This document shows, one piece after another, positions 31,638-45,494 of a stretch of 64,000 nucleotides of DNA. Positions within the stretch are counted from its first letter, which is position 1. Every line of letters starts with the position of its first letter. Location: assembly GCA_902777015.1 (NCBI GenBank), contig CACYSA010000006.1:33502-97501 (forward strand), read 5' to 3'. The position numbers were made by a program, and so were the translations under genes. The notes beneath the pieces are model-generated. The model made no database searches. It saw only the letters and a list, made by a program, of their open reading frames with translations, and was not told the DNA's origin. This stretch comes from an uncultured Erysipelotrichaceae bacterium (GTDB taxonomy: Bacteria > Bacillota_I > Bacilli_A > RFN20 > CAG-826).

Positions 31638-32780
31638 TTAGCTTGAATGTCTTCTATCGTGACCTGATTTTAAGTAGAAATCAGCTTTATCTTTATACAT
31701 TAATTTTTCTGCTTCTTTCATCGCTTCATCAAATGTTATCGGATTATTTTCTTTATCAATGAAATAATAACCAATTGCCGCGGAATAAGTTGATTCTCTT
31801 AATTTTTCTTTGATTTGATAAACAGTATGAGCGAGTATTTCTTGACGACCGTTGAACATCAAGATGAGGAATTCATCACCACTTATACGATAAACACACA
31901 TGCTTGTTTCATCAATGCAGTTTTCAAAAATACTAGCGATTTCAATAAGTGCGTTATCACCCACACCATGACCATAATGGTCATTTAAGAATTTTAATTC
32001 GTTCATGTCGATTTGAACAACGCCATTAATCAAAGATCTATAACGGGAAATATCTTCATAATATGTTCTTCTATCGTAAAGATGTGTTAATGGGTCTCTA
32101 GACGTATTAACGGAAACAATAAAGATGTAGTTAGTCATCGCACATATGGCACTGACGATATTTAATAAATCGTTTCTATTAACAAGCATTTCTACGATAA
32201 CAGTCACACTGATAATTGCTACACAAAGAATAATAACGACACCATCACGACGATGTTTGCCATGGAACCTTAACGCTCCAACATAGATAAGAACACCTAA
32301 ATAGAATGCCGAGATGATATGTGAAACGAAATTCAATGGGGATCCTCTTATAAAAGATGCTGTTCCATCAGCGTTCATTTGATAATAGAAAATGATTTTT
32401 GAAATACCAGGAACACCAAAGAATAATGGGAGTATATACACTACCGCATTAGCCATAAGAGGTATCAAACATATTCTATAGAATAATTTGCTTCTTTTTT
32501 GATCCATATTGGCTAATAAGATAAAAACAAATAAAAGAATTGGTCTAGTGATATAGCCTAACGAAGTAAATATCGTACCAAGATAAATGTTACCAATCAC
32601 TTGGGAATATTTTTCAATTTCCACGACGATAGATAAGAATAAGACAATGATAATAAAAGAGATGAAAAGTAAACTTTCCTTTTTTCTCACTCTGATATTG
32701 CGTAAAGAAATGAAAAGTATCACTACCGCAACAGCGAATAAAGGAATGTTATTTGTTAGATATTTGACGAATTCATTCAT
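31638..32780 (-). CDS. Membrane sensor with GGDEF-type domain (degenerate SGDEF)
   Basis: Five or six TM helices followed by a GGDEF domain reading RISGDEF. Confidence 0.65.
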   Translation of the reverse strand: MNEFVKYLTNNIPLFAVAVVILFISLRNIRVRKKESLLFISFIIIVLFLSIVVEIEKYSQVIGNIYLGTIFTSLGYITRPILLFVFILLANMDQKRSKLFYRICLIPLMANAVVYILPLFFGVPGISKIIFYYQMNADGTASFIRGSPLNFVSHIISAFYLGVLIYVGALRFHGKHRRDGVVIILCVAIISVTVIVEMLVNRNDLLNIVSAICAMTNYIFIVSVNTSRDPLTHLYDRRTYYEDISRYRSLINGVVQIDMNELKFLNDHYGHGVGDNALIEIASIFENCIDETSMCVYRISGDEFLILMFNGRQEILAHTVYQIKEKLRESTYSAAIGYYFIDKENNPITFDEAMKEAEKLMYKDKADFYLKSGHDRRHSS

Positions 32781-32879
32781 ATTGGTATTCTACATTTTTG
32801 ATAATAAATGGTAAATAATTAAATTTTTAACACATAATGCTTTAAAAGCATTGTGATGGCGTTTTTCTCGATATTATCA

Positions 32880-33540
32880 CAATTATTTACACCTCATATC
32901 AAAAAAGTAGCGAGTCTCCAAGCACGCCTCCAACGTTATTCCCACCCATGAATTTAATTGTGGGAAGCAACTTTTATTACTGAAATCTTATCGTATCTCT
33001 TACGCTACATTGAAATCGCTATTCAAAAAGACAATTTCCGTTATTATTCAACGCCTAAGAAACGTCGAAAAATAAAAACGCCTCAACCGAAGTGTTAATA
33101 TTTGTCAAGCAGGCCAGCCTAATTAAGGAAACTACTAAATCGTTCCAGGTGTTAAGTGGATTCGGTTTCCCCCTGCATCGCTTTGTGCCATTCAGGAGAA
33201 TGCGCCGTGGTCGTTACGCTGAATTTCCACCTTTGACATTTGTATTATAGCAATTAAAAGAAAACATCTCAAACGAGACGTTTATATCAAACAGGGCGGT
33301 GAATCATGAATCGCTGACTCCATTCACGATGAATGCGCCGTGGTCGAACACCGACTTTCCACCTTTGATAATGCCAAGCAGGCCAGCCTAATTAAGGAAG
33401 CGACTGGAACGTTAGAGGTCATCTATTGGCTTCCCCCTGCATCGCGTAATGACTATAAGTCTCCACCCTTTACGAGTGCGCCGTGGTCGACTGCTGAATC
33501 TCCACCTTTGGCATAATTATTCTAAAAGAATGTGTATCGA
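32880..33540. repeat. GC-rich non-coding region with internal direct repeats; candidate structured RNA or decayed element
   Basis: No ORF of 60 aa or more on either strand across about 650 bp despite the AT-rich genome. Repeated blocks GAATGCGCCGTGGTCG...TTCCACCTTTGA (x3), AAGCAGGCCAGCCTAATTAAGGAA (x2) and TTCCCCCTGCATCGC (x2). Confidence 0.5.
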
Positions 33541-33543
33541 TTT

Positions 33544-33909
33544 TCAATCGTTATTTTTAACTGGATATATCGTAACAACTGATTCTTTCTTATTCTTTTT
33601 TACTTCAGTAACTATCTTCAAATACTTCAATCTTTCTTTTTTCTTTCCTCTTTTTCCTATATAGGTTTTAAATTTTCGTCCATTCCTATCATTCTTCAAA
33701 GATTCTTTATCGCGTAAAATCGTAGGAATAACAGCAACATCTTTAACATGGATATGATGTTCTTTGTTTGCAATGTGTTCAAAAATAGTTTCGTCTCTTT
33801 TATCTACATCAAAACGAACTTCTCCTCCATTAGAAGTCTTTAGAGGTACGGGTAGCGCCTTTAATGCAGATATTACATTCTGATCATATTCTTTATTCTT
33901 TTTAGGCAT
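33544..33909 (-). CDS. Small basic hypothetical protein
   Basis: Lys-rich, no TM. Preceded by a copy of the shared palindromic motif. Confidence 0.4.
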   Translation of the reverse strand: MPKKNKEYDQNVISALKALPVPLKTSNGGEVRFDVDKRDETIFEHIANKEHHIHVKDVAVIPTILRDKESLKNDRNGRKFKTYIGKRGKKKERLKYLKIVTEVKKNKKESVVTIYPVKNND

Positions 33910-34248
33910 ATTTAAAGGATAACATCTTATTACATATATGTCATTATAAATTCACAGAATTTAATCAATGATATAATATCACTATAATTGTCCGGATAAG
34001 GCAAGAAAAAAGGACTGATATTTTGTATCAATCCTATTTAATCAAGTTGGCAAGGTTTCAGTGTTTTGATACACATGGAACAAAGCAGAAACCCGTGGAA
34101 CAGACTGCCACTTTGACTTATTAATATAAAGACTTAATGAATCGAGATTATAGTCATTGTTTGAAATTTAGCACTAGCAAAGAAGAAGGCCACGCCATCT
34201 ATAATCGCACCTTAGAATTATCAAATAAAAAACTAATCTAAAGATTGA

Positions 34249-34509
34249 TTAGAGTTTGAAGGAACATCTACAGTCTTGACATTTACAGAATCTACCATTA
34301 CCAGTGCTAAAGTATGTGTAGTTTTTGCTACCACAGTTAGGGCACTTATCACTGGAACAAACACCACCACCACTGATGACTTCTAATTGTTCATCAGTTA
34401 ATTCAACGCCTTCTTGCTTTGCAAGATTGAGTAGCTCATCATGGTTTTTGCACTCTCTTAATTTGGCAATCTGTTCGTCAGTTAAGCCTTTTAATAATTC
34501 TTCTTTCAT
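34249..34509 (-). CDS. Leader-peptide-type precursor: Nif11-like leader, double-glycine cleavage site, Cys-rich core
   Basis: From the internal Met (RBS AAAGGAGA): MKEELLKGLTDEQIAKLRECKNHDELLNLAKQEGVELTDEQLEVISGG, then core GVCSSDKCPNCGSKNYTYFSTGNGRFCKCQDCRCSFKL (7 Cys). Confidence 0.5.
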   Translation of the reverse strand: MKEELLKGLTDEQIAKLRECKNHDELLNLAKQEGVELTDEQLEVISGGGVCSSDKCPNCGSKNYTYFSTGNGRFCKCQDCRCSFKL

Positions 34510-34663
34510 TATCAAAGTTCTCCTTTGTTGCTTGTATGTTAACATGGTAGTTGTCACAGAAGTGCCACAAAAGAAAAAGGATTGATTAATCAATCCTACA
34601 TTTTCTAAGTTGGCCTAAATGGGCAGAAATGATACAATTGAACACTTCTCAAAAAGCCGAACG

Positions 34664-35308
34664 CTATTTCTTTAATAGCTTTTTAAGCTCTTTTTTGCTT
34701 TGGTCTATATCCCCAGTAAGTAATGGGATTAGTTTTTTAATTTCTTCAATATCTTTGTCCCACCACTTGAGTTCCAAAAGAAGATCAATTGTTTCTTTAT
34801 CAAATCTATATTTCTTAACAACTGCGGGATTACCTACGACAACCGCATAAGGAGGAACGTCTTTTGCCACAACCGCATTAGCGCCAATAACTGCACCGTC
34901 GCCAATATGGACTCCTGGAAGAATTGTGGCATTTTGTCCAATCCAAACATCATTACCTACGACTGTATCTCCACGGTTGCCTCTATCTCCAAATGATCTA
35001 GATAGACCTTTGAATTCGTCAATGATTTCAAAAGGATAAGTTGTTAAACAATCTAACATATGATTAGCGCCATTCATGACAAATTCCACGCCTCTTGCAA
35101 TAGCAACAAACTTGCCTATGATAAGTTTATCGCCCATAAAATCGTAATGATGAGTAACGTGTTTTTCAAACGATTCTGGACCATCTTCGCTATCATCATA
35201 ATATGAATAATCACCCACAATAATGTTTGGTCTAGTGATTACGCTTTTGATATAGCAAAAGGTTTTAAATTGTGCATTTGGGTAAATTGGTTTCATTTCT
35301 TTTTTCAT
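34664..35308 (-). CDS. Hexapeptide-repeat xenobiotic acetyltransferase (Vat/streptogramin-A acetyltransferase-like)
   Basis: Left-handed beta-helix hexapeptide repeats ([31 protein letters not shown]) with an N-terminal Vat-like region (VGDYSYY...). Confidence 0.6.
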
Positions 35309-35620
35309 AACAGTATGATAGCAAAAAAATAAAAGGACTGACACTTTGTATCAATTCTATTTAACTAAGTTGGGTTTGGCTAACAGGAAATATGCCTACT
35401 TTTTGAAAAACCTAACAGGAAAAATGCCTATCCAGTAGATACTATTTAAGCAATTTAACCATGTTATTGCTTTTCAAGAGCCTCCCTAAGCCCCTATAAA
35501 AGTATAATACAAATCTCTTCTTTTAGAAAAGTGAGTCCTAAGTTTCTGGAAAATGAAATGGATGTTCCTTCATGTCTTTTAACATCCCTTTAACTAGATA
35601 GTTTTTCAACAGCCCCTTTT

Positions 35621-40937: not shown

Positions 40938-41279
40938 CTATCCATAAAATCCTACGACTGTCATTCGCGAAATACTGATTATCATTTCCCCCTTGGAAAT
41001 AATCATTGGTTGATAAGTCGTAGAAATTGAATAAATTATTTCTTCACCAAAAGTTGGTGATAGATTTTCATCACAGTTAAATGTCACGTTATACATGGTT
41101 TCGATACGATTTTTAAAATTGTCATCAATAATTCCTGTTCGAGATATTAAATAGGAAATATTGCTCGATTTAGCGTCGAGGGAACTAAAGACACTTTGAA
41201 TGGAAATGAGATCCGCGCCGAAAAGGAAATACATCGCCACGAAAATCATTGATAACAAAAGACCGATTTTATATGACAT
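40938..41279 (-). CDS. TadE-like / pseudopilin-like protein
   Basis: N-terminal hydrophobic helix, small soluble domain. Lies within the pilus operon. Confidence 0.35.
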   Translation of the reverse strand: MSYKIGLLLSMIFVAMYFLFGADLISIQSVFSSLDAKSSNISYLISRTGIIDDNFKNRIETMYNVTFNCDENLSPTFGEEIIYSISTTYQPMIISKGEMIISISRMTVVGFYG

Positions 41280-41967
41280 TAATTAAATCCCCCAATAAAG
41301 AAAGAATGGAAATAGTTAATGTCACAGTTATTAAACCCGCTCCTGCGAGAGGGAAGGTTGACATATTGGCTAAAGATCTTTCTTTTTGTTCAATTAATTC
41401 CTTATTACGATTTTTAGCTAATTCGTCATAGATGACATTGAACTGTGTTAATTGTTCAAAGCTTTCACCCTGCTCCACCATTTGATAGATGGAGAGCATT
41501 AAACTATGACTAGCTAAATGCTTGAAATTATTAGCAAAATTAATAAATGGTTGAACAGTTTTATCTTTATCTATTTCTTTAAGAAATGTTTCGATTTTAT
41601 CTTTCATCCATGAAGAACAAAAAGGTATGAGTAGATTGAATGATTGATAAACATTATTTTTGTTTTGAAGATATATTTCAAAATAAGAGATGATAGCGAT
41701 AAGCTCATCTTCTCTCGCTTTAAGTATTAAATTCTTCTTATCTTTATAACGTGATAATAATAGATAATCGATTGCCATTAACGCTATAGCGGCGACAATG
41801 ACATAAATAAAATAATCAAAGACAAAATAAAGAATTGCTATACCGCCTAAAGAAGCGATATTTATGAGCACTATTTTTAATATTTCCTTTTTATAAGAAA
41901 GACCAACAAATTCGATGGTATCTTTAAAACTATTTTTCATCGTCTTTCCAACCCTCCAATGTGACAT
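41269..41967 (-). CDS. TadC-like pilus assembly membrane protein (T2SS F-type)
   Basis: About 232 aa, three TM helices. Paired with a similar upstream protein and directly downstream of a CpaF-type ATPase. Confidence 0.45.
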   Translation of the reverse strand: MSHWRVGKTMKNSFKDTIEFVGLSYKKEILKIVLINIASLGGIAILYFVFDYFIYVIVAAIALMAIDYLLLSRYKDKKNLILKAREDELIAIISYFEIYLQNKNNVYQSFNLLIPFCSSWMKDKIETFLKEIDKDKTVQPFINFANNFKHLASHSLMLSIYQMVEQGESFEQLTQFNVIYDELAKNRNKELIEQKERSLANMSTFPLAGAGLITVTLTISILSLLGDLINVI

Positions 41968-42637
41968 TAGAAATGCGCTTTACCAAAATGTAGATTGAAA
42001 GAAGCACAAATAAGAAGATGGCCACTACCGACACCTGGTAAAAAGGTGTTTGAATAACTTTGTTATAAAACTGTGATAAGGCAAATCTTAATGACGCCAA
42101 AATAATTAGCGTAATACTCCACAAGATGGTAAATTCAATCACTCTTGATTTATGCATTGATTCGCAAGATAAGAGATATTCTTCTTTTAAACGTAGTTTA
42201 TTAATCAGACGTTGACTCATATTTAAAATGTCACCGCCTTGTTCATTCCATAAAGTAACCATATCAACGAAAAGGTAATATAAATCAAATTTAAAATATT
42301 TACTTAAGTAAGATAGCTGTTCTTCTTCATCCATTTCTTTAATGGAATCCATCACTTCTTTTACTTTACTATCGCTGATGTTATAAGCGCTTTCTCTAGC
42401 GTACGCTAAAGAACCTTTAATACTTAAAGAAACTAGATAAGTATTTACAAAGCGATAACACTGATGGTAGCGGCGGGTTTTGTTTAGATATTTGTTTTTT
42501 TGCCTTCTAGCGATGAAAACGAAAAAACCTATGGACGTTAGGAAAATTACAAGACTACTAATAACATTTTCACTCGCAATATAATTCAAACCAGCGAAGG
42601 CGAGCGAAACAAAAAATCCAATTAACAAAAAATTCAT
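41930..42637 (-). CDS. TadB-like pilus assembly membrane protein
   Basis: About 235 aa, three TM helices. Start overlaps the ATPase stop. Confidence 0.45.
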   Translation of the reverse strand: MNFLLIGFFVSLAFAGLNYIASENVISSLVIFLTSIGFFVFIARRQKNKYLNKTRRYHQCYRFVNTYLVSLSIKGSLAYARESAYNISDSKVKEVMDSIKEMDEEEQLSYLSKYFKFDLYYLFVDMVTLWNEQGGDILNMSQRLINKLRLKEEYLLSCESMHKSRVIEFTILWSITLIILASLRFALSQFYNKVIQTPFYQVSVVAIFLFVLLSIYILVKRISNVTLEGWKDDEK

Positions 42638-43692
42638 TTATTTCCTCCTAGAAAAGTTCTTTTGAATAAGTTACTAGCGTGAGAAGTGTTTAACATTTTT
42701 AATGGCTCGGTTCCTAATAACTTAAATCTTTTGTTTTCCCCGTCACTACCATATATTTCTTCCATTGTCTTACCATTAAGGTAACCAACAGATGAAATGT
42801 ATCTTGATACCACACCATCTTCGCTATATTTACGTGTTAAATAAATATAGAAACGAAGATGATATGAAACATCTTGATAGACATCTTGATAATCCATTTT
42901 TTGTTCGTTCATCATCACCATTCTCACCATGCGATAAGGCATACTTTCGATGTCAAAAGCATGTAATGTCGTAATGATTGGATGACCAGTTAATGAAGAA
43001 TTAAGAACATCAATAGCTTCTTTACCACGACTTTCAGCAACTATAAGCCAATCTGGATTACTTCTTAAAGCGGTTTTCACTAACCGCTCAGTCGAAGCAT
43101 TTTCTCTATTTTCATCGACTTGCCAAATATTTAAATCAAGATGATTTTCAACTTGCAATTGATCTAGTTCTAATACGTTATCGATAACTATCGCTCTTGT
43201 GTTTTCTTTCATTCTTGTAATGAGATATTTTTGTAATTCGGTTTTGCCACTTCCCGTTAATCCTCCAAGCACGATTGAAACATTAGAGTCAATTAGTACA
43301 TCTAACAAATCACTTAAGGCTGGAGGAAAATATCTTTCGTCTTCTTGGATGCGTAAACGCGTTGACGCAATACGTAATGAAAAGCATATACATTCATTGT
43401 TTTTCTTACGGCAAACACTTTGATGCAACGCTGTTAGACGATATTTACCAAATGAGACATCTAATTCTGGATTTTGATAAGAGAATTGCTTTTCAGATAA
43501 ATTAGCAATTTGACGAATGAAATCTCTTACCAAAAGTGGTTCCACTTCAACGTTTCTTTTTAAACGACCAAATTTATTATCAATATAAAAGATATATTCC
43601 CCGTTATAAGAAATATCGGTGATAGTATCCTCTTTTAATAAGTCGCTTAAAAAGGATGTTTCTAAATAACCTACTAACTTCTTAACGTCCAT
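42634..43692 (-). CDS. Tad/CpaF-type (VirB11 superfamily) secretion ATPase
   Basis: Walker A GGLTGSGKT. Downstream block DWLIVAESRGKEAIDVLNSSLTGHPIITTLHA matches the CpaF/TadA E.RG.EA...TGH...TT.HA signature. Confidence 0.7.
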   Translation of the reverse strand: MDVKKLVGYLETSFLSDLLKEDTITDISYNGEYIFYIDNKFGRLKRNVEVEPLLVRDFIRQIANLSEKQFSYQNPELDVSFGKYRLTALHQSVCRKKNNECICFSLRIASTRLRIQEDERYFPPALSDLLDVLIDSNVSIVLGGLTGSGKTELQKYLITRMKENTRAIVIDNVLELDQLQVENHLDLNIWQVDENRENASTERLVKTALRSNPDWLIVAESRGKEAIDVLNSSLTGHPIITTLHAFDIESMPYRMVRMVMMNEQKMDYQDVYQDVSYHLRFYIYLTRKYSEDGVVSRYISSVGYLNGKTMEEIYGSDGENKRFKLLGTEPLKMLNTSHASNLFKRTFLGGNK

Positions 43693-44078
43693 TAGTTACT
43701 CCTTATCTGATAGTACATCGTCTTTTCATAGTGATAATTAAGAATCAAAGAAGCTTCCACTTTTACTTCAACCGCATGACAAGTATCGCTAAGACAGATG
43801 GAATGATTAAAAGGATTGTAATAATAAAAGTCTAACGAATAGTCTTTTGTATATTTTTTCATCGAGAAATCGAAATATGATTGGATACGATTCTCTAAGG
43901 CTTGTTTATCAAAAGAAGGCCCCACGTTCTCGTTTATGTTCAGCATATTGATCGAAGTTTCATATAAAGAAATAGGCATCGATAAAACTAGATTATTAAC
44001 TCCATTTATTTGATAAGACATCATAAAGAAATTGAAAGAGATGACTGCGATAAAAAGAGCAATGAATATGATCACCAT
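43692..44078 (-). CDS. Membrane-anchored pseudopilin-like protein
   Basis: N-terminal TM helix (MVIIFIALFIAVISF) with a small extracellular domain. Translationally coupled. Confidence 0.3.
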   Translation of the reverse strand: MVIIFIALFIAVISFNFFMMSYQINGVNNLVLSMPISLYETSINMLNINENVGPSFDKQALENRIQSYFDFSMKKYTKDYSLDFYYYNPFNHSICLSDTCHAVEVKVEASLILNYHYEKTMYYQIRSN

Positions 44079-45178
44079 TATTTAATTCCTCCTTCGATGT
44101 AATAATCACTATCACCACATAAGCCCACTAAAGAGCGGTCAGCAACATACCTAATCGGAAAAGAAGCATTTAACTTACTTTTACCTAATCCAACTACATC
44201 TAAATATAGAAGTTTATTATTGAAGATTCTTTTACCATTTACTGGCAAATAAAAATATGTTGAAGGCGCATAACCAGGGTGAGAAACATTAGATAACTGT
44301 AATGTCCTTTTATTAACGTAAAATGAGTTTTTATATTTAAGAGTTAGGATGTCATTAATCTTTGTAGTGCCTAGAGGAATATTGATATTTACCCCATCAT
44401 GATTTAAATAGGGAAATAGATTTTCACGGTCTTCAAAACGCAGAGATATGGAATCGTAACTAAAATCAAATAGCGAACTATATTTAAAATTAATATTCGT
44501 AAGGTTGAGACGATAATAATAATCGATATCTAAATAATCTGTTAATGAAGTAAAATCATATTTTTCTTTAATACCTTTAATGGCTTTCCCATCAGCGTAA
44601 AAGCCGATATCTCTAGTTTCGTAAACGCTACTTTTTAATTCTTGCGTTGTCGGTTTGTCACTAGATATTGGATAAAAAGTCGTACCATAATTCGCCACTA
44701 TGAGATGTTTAGTTTTATCAACAACTTCAAATTTAAAAGTCATGCCGTTATTAGTAAGACATTCTTTTATTGGCATAGTGAATGTCGCCATTTCTAAACT
44801 ATCTTCGATATAATCTTTAGTCTCATTAACATAAGCGTATATAACGCTTCCTGTAGGGCCTATTATTCTTAATCTTTCATTTACTAGACGGCTAGGACCA
44901 AAAATACGATAAGTAAAATTTACTTCAAAATTAGGATCTCCCACTTTAAAAGGTCCATACAATGGGCATTCGATATAATCACTATTATCATCAGGATTAG
45001 AACTACTAGATGTTCTTGAATACTTAAATGAACCCGCGGATATATTTGGTGGAGGAGCAAAATTAGAAGAACGAGTAATTATAGAAAAGTCTATCTTGCC
45101 CGCAGCGGTTACCTCGCTAGTAATCCCGCTTGTGGACGAAACAATTATTGCGCTTGATAAAAGCAATATTTTAAGCAT
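44078..45178 (-). CDS. Secreted protein of the pilus operon (possible tip or adhesin component)
   Basis: Signal peptide, 366 aa, Tyr/Asn-rich. Confidence 0.35.
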   Translation of the reverse strand: MLKILLLSSAIIVSSTSGITSEVTAAGKIDFSIITRSSNFAPPPNISAGSFKYSRTSSSSNPDDNSDYIECPLYGPFKVGDPNFEVNFTYRIFGPSRLVNERLRIIGPTGSVIYAYVNETKDYIEDSLEMATFTMPIKECLTNNGMTFKFEVVDKTKHLIVANYGTTFYPISSDKPTTQELKSSVYETRDIGFYADGKAIKGIKEKYDFTSLTDYLDIDYYYRLNLTNINFKYSSLFDFSYDSISLRFEDRENLFPYLNHDGVNINIPLGTTKINDILTLKYKNSFYVNKRTLQLSNVSHPGYAPSTYFYLPVNGKRIFNNKLLYLDVVGLGKSKLNASFPIRYVADRSLVGLCGDSDYYIEGGIK

Positions 45179-45494
45179 GATAAATACCCTCCAAGAACTT
45201 CAGCATCGTTAGTTTCTTTAAACGATAAAAATTAGCTTTGGAGTACAAACCAACCCACCAGTATTGATAGTTTTGATAGAAGAATTCGTTATTGATTAAG
45301 TTTTGCTGTTTTTCATTTAATAAAGAGTAAGCTTTTTCCACTTTTATTAAATAAGCTTGGTATGGTAAATCATATTTCTTGATAATATCGTTACTATTTA
45401 AAACTAGTAAAGCTTTCCTGGCAAAGAAAAACTTATCGGCAACTTCTTCAGTCATTTTGCTTAATTCTTTGAAGCTTTTTTCGATCAATACCAT
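45171..45494 (-). CDS. Small cytoplasmic protein, first gene of the pilus operon
   Basis: 107 aa, no TM. Overlaps the next gene. Confidence 0.3.
   Translation of the reverse strand: MVLIEKSFKELSKMTEEVADKFFFARKALLVLNSNDIIKKYDLPYQAYLIKVEKAYSLLNEKQQNLINNEFFYQNYQYWWVGLYSKANFYRLKKLTMLKFLEGIYHA

What the first reader, a model, noticed from the sequence alone, without database searches (positions are those of the whole stretch)
32880..33540. 650-bp GC-rich, ORF-free, internally repetitive region: candidate large structured RNA or decayed mobile element
Local GC is clearly higher than the roughly 30% background (GCGCCGTGGTCG, CAGGCCAGCC). No ORF of 60 aa or more occurs on either strand. Three copies of GAATGCGCCGTGGTCG-N6-8-CTGAATYTCCACCTTTGRCA each contain a hairpin-capable ATTCAG/CTGAAT pair. 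There are two copies of AAGCAGGCCAGCCTAATTAAGGAA...TTCCCCCTGCATCGC, plus a further hairpin TTCCCAC...GTGGGAA. It sits directly beside the putative peptide cluster. This is not CRISPR-like, since the repeats are irregular.
Basis: seen in the sequence. Interest (0 to 1): 0.6.

Follow-up and report, generated by a model that had tools for sequence, protein, structure and literature searches.

The report
Structured RNAs partnered with RNase-toxin gene
The GC-rich "gene-free" stretch holds three copies of a previously undescribed, intricately folded small RNA that always sits just behind a small RNase-toxin-like gene in uncultured gut and rumen bacteria, which most likely makes it an RNA antidote to that toxin.

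Summary
Window 33103-33514 (minus strand) holds three homologous RNA genes of 144, 86 and 136 nt in two transcription units, each with a sigma-70-type promoter and an intrinsic terminator.

I found about 65 further copies in low-GC "Bacilli"/Erysipelotrichaceae metagenome-assembled genomes. They share a four-helix junction (P1-P4) and a P2-loop/P4-loop kissing pseudoknot. Covariation is strong: 94-96% of cells paired against 25-51% in slid controls, and 18 of 26 pairs have compensatory changes. Rfam 15 has no match.

The RNA lies 17-48 nt downstream of a ~120-aa gene (window 33544-33909, minus). Every testable family protein has the RNA behind it (26/26 RNA-first, 9/9 protein-first). About half of the RNA copies lack the protein, including window units 2 and 1. 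Two loci keep remnants of a deleted protein gene.

The protein is a solo PBECR/MuF-C domain, a phage-type BECR-fold RNase.

Best reading: a new type III-like toxin-antitoxin module with an RNase toxin and a structured RNA antidote. This is inferred, not shown. Riboswitch, tRNA, CRISPR and IS readings were tested and are not supported.

The parts
33544..33909 (-). Gene for a 121-aa solo PBECR/MuF-C-like protein (predicted BECR-fold RNase; presumed toxin)
   Evidence: ORF. The family is found directly upstream of the RNA in 26/26 and 9/9 testable loci. 20 of 44 family members hit Pfam MuF_C (best E 5.6e-7) and 10 of 44 hit PBECR3. AF2 model: pLDDT 86.4. Invariant residues: H45, H51, D57, D74, Y83, R87.
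33519..33547 (-). Promoter-like site for RNA units 3+2 (TTGAAA-17-TAGAAT). The -35 box overlaps the stop codon of the PBECR gene.
   Evidence: A -10 box with at least 5/6 matches lies 4-12 nt before P1 in 46 of 54 copies.
33371..33514 (-). RNA unit 3 (long class, 144 nt), the cognate partner of the adjacent protein
   Evidence: P1 is AUGCCAA/UUGGCAU. CM R1 hit at 33448-33515. The same protein+RNA arrangement occurs in L054, L106 and L109.
33285..33370 (-). RNA unit 2 (short class, 86 nt). It abuts unit 3 with no spacer and is co-transcribed. It is an 'orphan' whose cognate protein type is absent from the window.
   Evidence: CM R1 hit of 90.4 bits, E 2e-22, at 33283-33372. P1 is UAUCAAA/UUUGAUA. 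tblastn finds only one family protein in the window. The tandem long+short dimer is conserved in L106 and L109.
33253..33283 (-). Intrinsic terminator after units 3+2 (AAACGUCUCGUUUGAGAUGUUU + U-run)
33244..33272 (-). Promoter-like site for RNA unit 1 (TTGAGA-17-TATAAT with TG; 11 of 12 matches)
33103..33238 (-). RNA unit 1 (long class, 136 nt), an orphan copy with its own promoter and terminator
   Evidence: P1 is UGUCAA/UUGACA. CM R1 hit at 33148-33240, 51.8 bits. Near-identical copies sit behind a different protein subfamily in L016, L053, L078, L090 and L036.
33068..33096 (-). Intrinsic terminator after unit 1 (AACACUUC-GGUU-GAGGCGUU + UUUAUUUUU)
   Evidence: Read from the sequence. Hairpin plus T-run detected (window -30769, term@32, -5.9 kcal/mol).
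32939..32966 (.). Inverted repeat TTCCCAC...GTGGGAA in the spacer before the GGDEF gene. It is not part of the RNA family and its role is unknown.
   Evidence: Only 33009-33070 of this spacer recurs elsewhere (L016, 97% identity).

Best explanation
The region is the RNA half of a two-gene module. The gene at 33909>33544 encodes a small solo PBECR/MuF-C domain protein, a BECR-fold endoribonuclease of the kind used as a toxin. Right after its stop codon a strong promoter drives a compact structured RNA that ends at its own terminator. The RNA has four helices around a junction, locked by a kissing interaction between the P2 and P4 loops.

I propose that the RNA binds the RNase and keeps it inactive, as a type III-like toxin-antitoxin or 'immunity RNA'. 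It may act as a pseudo-substrate. It would be made in excess because it is transcribed both from its own promoter and by read-through from the protein gene.

Units 2 and 1 in the window are extra, protein-less copies of two other specificity classes. They are either leftovers of modules whose toxin gene was lost, or spare antidotes against related toxins.

Shown: the RNA family, its fold, its transcription signals, the strict linkage to the protein, the asymmetry of loss, and the protein's domain family. Inferred: RNase activity, toxicity, and RNA-protein binding and neutralisation.
For: RNA reality:
- Alignment A1 (29 copies): 94.3% of cells paired, against 25-51% when the partners are slid. 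18 of 26 pairs have changes on both sides, including all 5 pairs of the pseudoknot. 0 of 500 shuffles reach the observed values.
- Alignment A5 (40 distinct copies): 96.1% paired, 16 of 21 pairs covary.
- G-U cells outnumber A-C cells 27 to 8, which fixes the strand.
- Transcription unit: a -10 box in 46 of 54 copies and a terminator in 49 of 54. Most of the exceptions are the inner members of tandem dimers.

Linkage:
- A family ORF ends 18-48 nt before the RNA in 21 loci, across all RNA classes.
- 26 of 26 testable proteins have the RNA within 150 nt downstream.
- Protein-first sampling gives 9 of 9, including RNAs that the original DNA pattern could not have found.
- No other neighbour is conserved. 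Downstream genes are heterogeneous.

Asymmetry expected of an antidote:
- 30 of 56 RNA copies lack the protein, and no testable protein lacks the RNA.
- L080 keeps only the first 13 codons of the protein gene before an intact RNA, and L109 only the last 18.

Protein:
- MuF_C in 20 of 44 members (best E 5.6e-7) and PBECR3 in 10 of 44.
- MuF-C is a PBECR, a BECR-fold RNase domain (PMC5512222).
- A 519-aa MuF-like protein carries this domain at its C-terminus.
- A histidine in the first helix is invariant and a Thr/Ser near the C-terminus is conserved (read by eye), as described for active PBECRs.
- The top fold matches, though weak, are BECR/RelE-type RNase toxins and MuF-C proteins.

Pairing specificity: protein subfamilies go with particular RNA classes.
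Against: - No experiment: toxicity, RNase activity and RNA binding are all inferred.
- The window protein itself hits no Pfam family. The domain call rests on family members and on weak structural matches (best Foldseek E 0.13 in PDB and 0.028 in BFVD).
- The gene order and RNA form differ from every known type III system: the RNA is downstream, is a single large unit rather than short tandem repeats, and has its own promoter.
- About 20 RNA copies stand alone with no trace of the protein within 700 nt. So the RNA may have a function of its own.
- The RNA core is invariant across modules whose proteins share only 20-25% identity. This could equally point to a conserved host partner.
- A highly structured RNA need not be labile, as classical antitoxins are.
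Confidence: 0.5

Rival explanations
1. Non-toxic ribonucleoprotein. The RNA is the functional entity, a lineage-specific small RNA. The PBECR-like protein is its dedicated processing enzyme, chaperone or partner rather than a toxin it must neutralise.
For: Half of the RNA copies do without the protein. The RNA core is far more conserved than the protein. Iyer et al. note that some PBECR domains, such as Mu MuF itself, are inactive and may only bind RNA. Tandem dimers could be processing substrates.
Against: The predicted catalytic residues are invariant across the family. Relatives of the domain are toxins or effectors. There are several paralogous modules per genome, in variable cassette-like contexts, with remnants of deleted protein genes. 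This fits selfish or defence modules better than a housekeeping RNP.
Confidence: 0.22
2. Cis-regulatory leader or riboswitch. Each unit senses a ligand and controls the gene downstream of it (here the GGDEF cyclase at 32780>31638) through its terminator.
For: The layout promoter - complex aptamer-like fold with pseudoknot - terminator - gene resembles Firmicute riboswitches. Tandem units occur. Two copies precede Vat-type acetyltransferase genes.
Against: Downstream genes are heterogeneous: AraC, MerR, XRE, Bro-N-like, flavodoxin, P-type ATPase, glyA, ZIP, lipoproteins and GGDEF, at distances of 6-480 nt, or none on that strand. By eye on a handful of copies, the terminators are free-standing hairpins that do not overlap P1 and show no conserved alternative pairing; no systematic test was run. 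The conserved neighbour is upstream, not downstream. No Rfam riboswitch model matches.
Confidence: 0.07
3. Regulator of toxin expression (type I-like or 3'-UTR element). The RNA acts on the PBECR mRNA by base pairing or by controlling its stability or translation, rather than by binding the protein.
For: It is co-linear with the protein gene, with no terminator in between. The conserved AAAGGUGGA resembles a Shine-Dalgarno sequence that is sequestered by CCAC.
Against: The RNA is on the same strand, so it is not antisense. Its conserved segments are used in intramolecular helices that covary. The protein genes have divergent 5' regions, and the window gene has no evident SD to be targeted.
Confidence: 0.08
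4. DNA-level element: a recombination site or miniature mobile repeat (attC-, REP- or MITE-like) that marks cassette boundaries in a plastic genome region.
For: The units are flanked by inverted repeats (P1), are multi-copy, and lie among variable cassette-like genes. A second terminator-like repeat also recurs at gene boundaries.
Against: The pairing is strand-specific, with G-U cells well above A-C cells. A covarying loop-loop pseudoknot is present. Promoter and terminator are precisely placed. The P1 strands seen do not fit the attC core consensus (RYYYAAC/GTTRRRY; read by eye, from memory of the consensus). No integrase was noticed among the neighbouring genes that were annotated; no dedicated search was run. 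No target-site duplications were seen.
Confidence: 0.04

Closest known systems
Type III toxin-antitoxin systems (ToxIN, CptIN, TenpIN; also the RNA-controlled AbiF of C. difficile phage)
   Same: The proposed logic is the same. A small endoribonuclease is kept inactive by a structured, pseudoknotted non-coding RNA encoded next to it, and transcription signals ensure an excess of RNA over protein. Several paralogous, specificity-matched pairs occur per genome.
   Different: The toxin fold is BECR/PBECR, not ToxN/AbiQ-like. The RNA lies downstream, not upstream. It is one 86-144 nt four-helix unit (sometimes a dimer) with its own promoter, not an array of 34-45 nt repeats cut out by the toxin. 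The terminator follows the RNA rather than separating RNA from toxin. Neutralisation is untested.
PBECR / MuF-C domains of phage polyvalent and MuF proteins (Iyer et al. 2017, PMC5512222; Pfam PF18819, PF18812)
   Same: The protein family matches these models. It shares the His-in-first-helix plus C-terminal Thr/Ser pattern. One relative is a MuF-like fusion.
   Different: Here the domain is a free-standing ~120-aa chromosomal protein in uncultured Bacilli. It was not found in phage collections and is invariably followed by a structured RNA. No RNA partner has been described for PBECRs in the papers searched.
BECR-fold toxins with protein antidotes (colicin D/ImmD, colicin E5/ImmE5, CdiA-CT/CdiI, RelE/RelB, BrnT/BrnA, HigB/HigA)
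   Same: Small metal-independent RNase toxin with a tightly linked, specificity-matched neutraliser. The best, though weak, fold matches are CdiA-CT Kp342, BrnT and HigB2.
   Different: No conserved protein partner is present. The only conserved neighbour is an RNA.
tRNA and tRNA-like RNAs (YrlA Y RNAs, viral TLS, mascRNA)
   Same: Cloverleaf topology with helix lengths 7/4/5/5, a 2-nt P1-P2 linker, no P4-P1 linker, and contact between the 'D-like' and 'T-like' loops. Many BECR toxins cut tRNA (PMC5512222), so a tRNA-shaped decoy is conceivable.
   Different: ARAGORN and the Rfam tRNA model do not recognise it. P3 carries GNRA/UUCG tetraloops, not an anticodon loop. The loop-loop contact is a 4-5 bp Watson-Crick helix, not a T-loop/D-loop contact. 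There is no CCA end. The resemblance is only a lead.

Membership tests
Any Rfam 15 family (incl. OLE, ROOL, GOLLD, HEARO, raiA, riboswitches, ToxI) | Covariance-model match at the family's gathering score | tested here: not met
   The whole window at gathering gave only 7 tRNAs elsewhere. Window 32700-33700 at E<=10 gave only chance-level hits of 14 bits or less. A medium-class copy in L118 gave nothing relevant.
Type III toxin-antitoxin (ToxIN/CptIN/TenpIN) | Antitoxin is an array of short (about 34-45 nt) direct RNA repeats upstream of the toxin gene, separated from it by a terminator | tested here: not met
   The RNA is downstream of the protein gene, is 86-144 nt long, occurs as a single unit or dimer, and has its own promoter. 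The terminator follows the RNA.
Type III toxin-antitoxin (ToxIN/CptIN/TenpIN) | Toxin belongs to the ToxN/AbiQ, CptN or TenpN families | tested here: not met
   PADLOC, NCBIfam and Pfam give no such hit. The family matches MuF_C/PBECR3 instead.
Type III toxin-antitoxin (ToxIN/CptIN/TenpIN) | The RNA binds the protein toxin and neutralises it | not testable with these tools
   Only indirect evidence: strict linkage, the asymmetry of loss, and class-matched pairs.
PBECR / MuF-C (BECR-fold RNase) protein family | Sequence match to the Pfam models PF18819/PF18812 | tested here: inconclusive
   20 of 44 members match MuF_C (best E 5.6e-7) and 10 of 44 match PBECR3 (best 0.0015). One member has a precomputed PF18819 hit. 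The window protein itself has no hit at E<=0.1 and the scores are below the gathering cut-off of 27.6 bits in the one case shown.
PBECR / MuF-C (BECR-fold RNase) protein family | BECR fold (N-terminal helix followed by a 4-5-stranded sheet), with a His in the helix and a C-terminal Thr/Ser | tested here: inconclusive
Riboswitch / cis-regulatory leader | Consistent association with a functional class of downstream genes | tested here: not met
   The first downstream ORFs fall in more than 15 unrelated classes, at 6-480 nt or absent.
Riboswitch / cis-regulatory leader | Expression platform whose terminator or SD competes with the aptamer | tested here: inconclusive
   By eye on a handful of copies, the terminators are separate hairpins 5-25 nt after P1, vary in sequence and show no conserved complementarity to the aptamer. 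No systematic complementarity or alternative-fold test was run.
tRNA / tmRNA | Recognised by ARAGORN or the Rfam tRNA model; anticodon loop and T-loop present | tested here: not met
   ARAGORN finds 0 genes in 32500-34000. There is no tRNA hit at E<=10. P3 is capped by tetraloops.
CRISPR array | Regularly spaced identical short repeats with unique spacers | tested here: not met
   Start-to-start spacing is 133 and 143 nt. The 'spacers' are homologous parts of the same RNA.
IS / prophage fragment | Similarity to known mobile-element sequence | tested here: not met
   No real copies in IMG/VR. The protein has no tblastn match in GenBank phages or PLSDB plasmids. PHROGs gives 0 hits.

The most novel reading that the evidence does not exclude
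This is a fourth, structurally unrelated family of RNA-antidote toxin-antitoxin systems. A BECR-fold (PBECR) RNase is held in check by a dedicated ~90-140 nt RNA with a cloverleaf-like four-way junction and a kissing-loop pseudoknot. The RNA may be a tRNA-shaped pseudo-substrate. Genomes keep arrays of protein-less 'immunity RNAs' of several specificity classes, such as units 2 and 1 in this window.
Probability: 0.35. Interest if true: 0.85.

Novelty: new variant of a known kind. Interest (0 to 1): 0.72.

Why it matters
All three established type III toxin-antitoxin families use ToxN-like toxins and short repeat RNAs. BECR-fold RNases are known with protein antidotes; in the papers I searched I found none with an RNA one. 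A complex, covarying RNA fold that is obligatorily linked to a BECR RNase would show that RNA antidotes have evolved for a second, very large toxin superfamily. It would add a new structured RNA class (four-way junction plus loop-loop pseudoknot) for structural study. It would also offer a matched RNase/RNA-inhibitor pair from uncultured rumen and gut Bacilli. Finally, it makes a concrete question testable: can an RNA, possibly a tRNA mimic, act as the immunity factor of a colicin-like RNase?

Tried and rejected
- **Rfam.** Searched at gathering score and at E<=10, on the window and on a medium-class copy. Nothing relevant.
Rejected. Promoters, terminators and the G-U/A-C asymmetry all point to the minus strand. 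Single-sequence folding z-scores were uninformative for the individual units.
It is not part of the covarying fold.
- **Riboswitch reading.** A census of downstream genes was heterogeneous.
- **tRNA/tmRNA.** ARAGORN was negative.
- **Coding potential of the units.** Rejected by inspection. Indels in P3 are not multiples of three and the substitutions are compensatory.
- **attC-like sites.** The core consensus is absent.
- **Protein annotation of the window ORF.** Pfam, PHROGs, PADLOC and NCBIfam gave nothing for the window ORF itself. A profile of the family (A2) against PDB sequences gave nothing significant.
- **Public collections.** The IMG/VR pattern scan returned only high-GC chance matches. 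GenBank phages and PLSDB plasmids gave no protein match.
- **High-GC pattern hits.** About 70 of the 119 genome-scan loci lie in genomes above 54% GC. I set them aside by GC content as likely chance matches and did not check them individually.
- **Literature.** No paper was found linking BECR or PBECR toxins to an RNA antidote.

Full report
**1. The observation**

The sequence features exist. GC climbs to 0.40-0.505 between 33000 and 33500 in a window that is otherwise about 0.27-0.36. No ORF of 60 aa or more lies inside the region. GARTGCGCCGTGGTCG occurs three times. Its 12-nt core occurs 3 times against 0.33 expected, and 0 of 100 shuffles reach 3. Each copy is followed by TCCACCTTTG. The two long repeats and the TTCCCAC/GTGGGAA inverted repeat are also present.

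Some details are off. The spacer lengths are wrong, CTGAAT is missing from the middle copy, and the ATTCAG/CTGAAT pair occurs only in the first copy. Nothing in Rfam 15 matches, at gathering score or at E<=10.

**2. Anatomy in the window**

The region makes sense when read on the minus strand.
- A promoter-like site (TTGAAA-17-TAGAAT, 33547>33519) precedes unit 3 (33514>33371).
- Unit 3 abuts unit 2 (33370>33285), which is followed by an intrinsic terminator (33283>33253).
- A near-consensus promoter (TTGAGA-17-TATAAT with TG, 33272>33244) then precedes unit 1 (33238>33103) and a second terminator (33096>33068).
- Each unit is closed by a helix P1 whose two strands change together between units: AUGCCAA/UUGGCAU, UAUCAAA/UUUGAUA and UGUCAA/UUGACA.

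**3. Relatives**

About 70 of them lie in genomes above 54% GC. I set these aside by GC content as likely chance matches and did not check them individually.

The 37 low-GC loci come from MAGs labelled 'Bacilli bacterium', Erysipelotrichaceae, 'Bacillales UBA' and Candidatus Enteromonas, from rumen, horse and human gut. They hold 45 copies with the same layout as the window's three. A covariance model found further copies that the pattern had missed.

The copies fall into three size classes: about 86 nt, about 92 nt and 136-146 nt. The classes differ in P3 and P4.

**4. Structure**

On 29 distinct short and medium copies I named five helices:
- P1 (7 bp)
- P2 (GUGG/CCAC)
- P3 (5 bp or more, capped by GNRA, UUCG or short loops)
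- P4 (4-6 bp)
- a helix between the P2 loop and the P4 loop

In this alignment 94.3% of cells pair, against 25-51% when the 3' partners are slid by 1-3 columns. 18 of 26 pairs have changes on both sides, and no shuffle of 500 reaches the observed values. All five pseudoknot pairs covary, for example CAGC/GCUG, CAGU/ACUG, UGAGC/GCUCA, UAGC/GCUA, CGGUG/CACCG and CGUUG/CAACG.

On 40 distinct copies aligned to the model, 96.1% pair and 16 of 21 nested pairs covary. That alignment is fitted to the model, so it leans towards the structure. P2 never varies, even in copies found without the pattern, so it is supported by conservation only.

In the long class, P4 is extended by a second covarying helix (GGAARC/GYUUCC), and RNAalifold adds an invariant CGC/GCG base to P3.

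G-U cells (27) outnumber A-C cells (8), which confirms the strand. A -10 box with at least 5/6 matches lies 4-12 nt before P1 in 46 of 54 copies, and a hairpin plus U-run follows P1 in 49 of 54. Most of the exceptions are the inner members of tandem dimers such as window unit 3/unit 2.

This is a genuine structured RNA gene family that is absent from Rfam.

**5. Context: the decisive result**

Clustering all ORFs within 3 kb of the copies showed one conserved neighbour. It is a 100-140-aa ORF on the same strand that ends 18-48 nt before the RNA. It occurs in 21 loci and with every RNA class. In the window it is 33909>33544.

With an HMM of the family:
- 26 of 26 testable proteins have the RNA within 150 nt downstream. 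The 27th sits on a 548-bp contig that ends 14 nt after the gene.
- 30 of 56 RNA copies have no adjacent protein.

Sampling from the protein side, through six family proteins from the protein database and their contigs, gave the RNA 17-39 nt after the stop codon in 9 of 9 testable loci. Some of these RNAs carry core changes that the original pattern could not match.

Upstream of 'orphan' RNAs, L080 keeps only the first 13 codons of the protein gene and L109 only the last 18. L066 is a paired copy cut by the contig end. About 15 others show no trace of the gene within 700 nt.

The window holds one protein gene and three RNAs. Units 2 and 1 belong to classes that sit behind other protein subfamilies in other genomes.

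Downstream genes are heterogeneous.

**6. The protein**

The window protein has no hit in Pfam, PHROGs, PADLOC or NCBIfam. Its relatives carry no source annotation (349 at E<=1e-3 in one database). The family is small: 110 clusters at 50% identity among 1.84 billion representatives.

Scanning 44 members individually, 20 match Pfam MuF_C (best E 5.6e-7) and 10 match PBECR3. Iyer et al. (PMC5512222) define MuF-C as a PBECR domain. [quoted passage not shown] The family has invariant H45 (in a helix of the model), H51, D57, D74, Y83 and R87, and a conserved Thr/Ser in the last strand. One relative is a 519-aa MuF-like protein with this domain at its C-terminus.

I regard 'solo PBECR-type RNase domain' as reasonably supported, and 'active toxin' as inferred.

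**7. Mechanism**

The data show an obligatory protein-to-RNA linkage with one-way loss: the RNA survives without the protein, and no testable protein is seen without the RNA. They also show class-matched pairs, several modules per genome, and placement among variable, cassette-like genes.

The simplest account is a toxin-antidote pair in which the RNA neutralises the RNase. This is type III logic, with RNA in excess thanks to its own promoter plus read-through. I give this 0.5.

A non-toxic RNP, in which the protein processes or escorts a small RNA that has its own function, explains the many stand-alone RNAs and the extreme conservation of the RNA core. I give it 0.22. Regulation of the toxin mRNA, a riboswitch, and a DNA-level repeat are each below 0.1, for the reasons listed under the rival explanations.

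The helix lengths (7/4/5/5), the junction linkers and the contact between the P2 and P4 loops recall a tRNA cloverleaf, and many BECR toxins cut tRNA. A pseudo-substrate decoy is therefore an attractive idea. But ARAGORN and Rfam do not see a tRNA here, so it stays a speculation.

**8. Comparison and novelty**

It would work like a type III toxin-antitoxin system, but it fails the defining features of the known families: toxin fold, repeat RNA, gene order and terminator position. It is therefore not a member of ToxIN, CptIN or TenpIN.

The protein belongs near PBECR/MuF-C. I found no report of an RNA partner for any BECR or PBECR toxin in the held literature. The module is absent from IMG/VR, GenBank phages and PLSDB plasmids.

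I class it as a new variant of a known kind. The RNA family is new and so is the pairing. The function remains to be shown.

Noticed in passing
window 33996-34095 (minus strand) and 35331-35373 (minus strand); also 34578-34597: A second, unrelated repeat: ...TGTATCAAAACACTGAAACCTTGCCAACTTAGTTAAATAGGATTGATAC...ATCAGTCCTTTTTTCTTGC. It ends in a terminator-like hairpin. It recurs 41 times across the window and 19 loci, often 2-4 times per 8 kb, at boundaries between variable genes (XRE | Vat | peptide | PBECR+RNA). It looks like a cassette-boundary or terminator repeat family. Its 5' half is unexplained.
   Followed up: partly
window 34249-34593 (minus strand): A 114-aa ORF with a weak Nif11-type leader match (E 0.004), a GG-type cleavage motif and a Cys-rich C-terminus. 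Its adjacency to the RNA module appears incidental.
   Followed up: no
window 34664-35344 (minus strand); L089, L090, L120, L088, L114: A Vat-type hexapeptide acetyltransferase gene keeps turning up next to PBECR-RNA modules. It is directly downstream of the RNA in L089, L090 and L120, and upstream in the window. This suggests a shared hotspot of accessory cassettes.
   Followed up: partly
L089, L036, L018 (just after the RNA terminators): Downstream genes start about 20 nt after the terminator U-run. They are preceded by TGnTAAAAT-type extended -10 boxes and have no Shine-Dalgarno sequence. This suggests leaderless mRNAs are common in these organisms.
   Followed up: no
window 33009-33070; L016 2214-2274: The 60 nt after the unit-1 terminator are 97% identical to the sequence after the same RNA class in L016. 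The rest of the spacer down to the GGDEF gene, including the TTCCCAC/GTGGGAA hairpin at 32939-32966, has no relative in the loci held.
   Followed up: partly
L111, about 170 nt downstream of its RNA copy: A sequence with the GGGGAGUAG signature of a yybP-ykoY (Mn2+) riboswitch precedes a P-type ATPase gene. L123 has the same ATPase context. So that downstream gene has its own leader, independent of the RNA described here. This was seen by eye and not run through Rfam.
   Followed up: no
window 40938-45494 (minus strand); loci L008, L028, L033, L046, L053, L078, L088-L090: In about 14 loci a conserved set of genes lies 0.6-3 kb upstream of the module: an acyl-carrier-like 81-aa protein, a 124-aa membrane protein, and two ~230-240-aa membrane proteins. 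This indicates a syntenic insertion hotspot in one genus. The window may carry the same operon, but I did not check.
   Followed up: no
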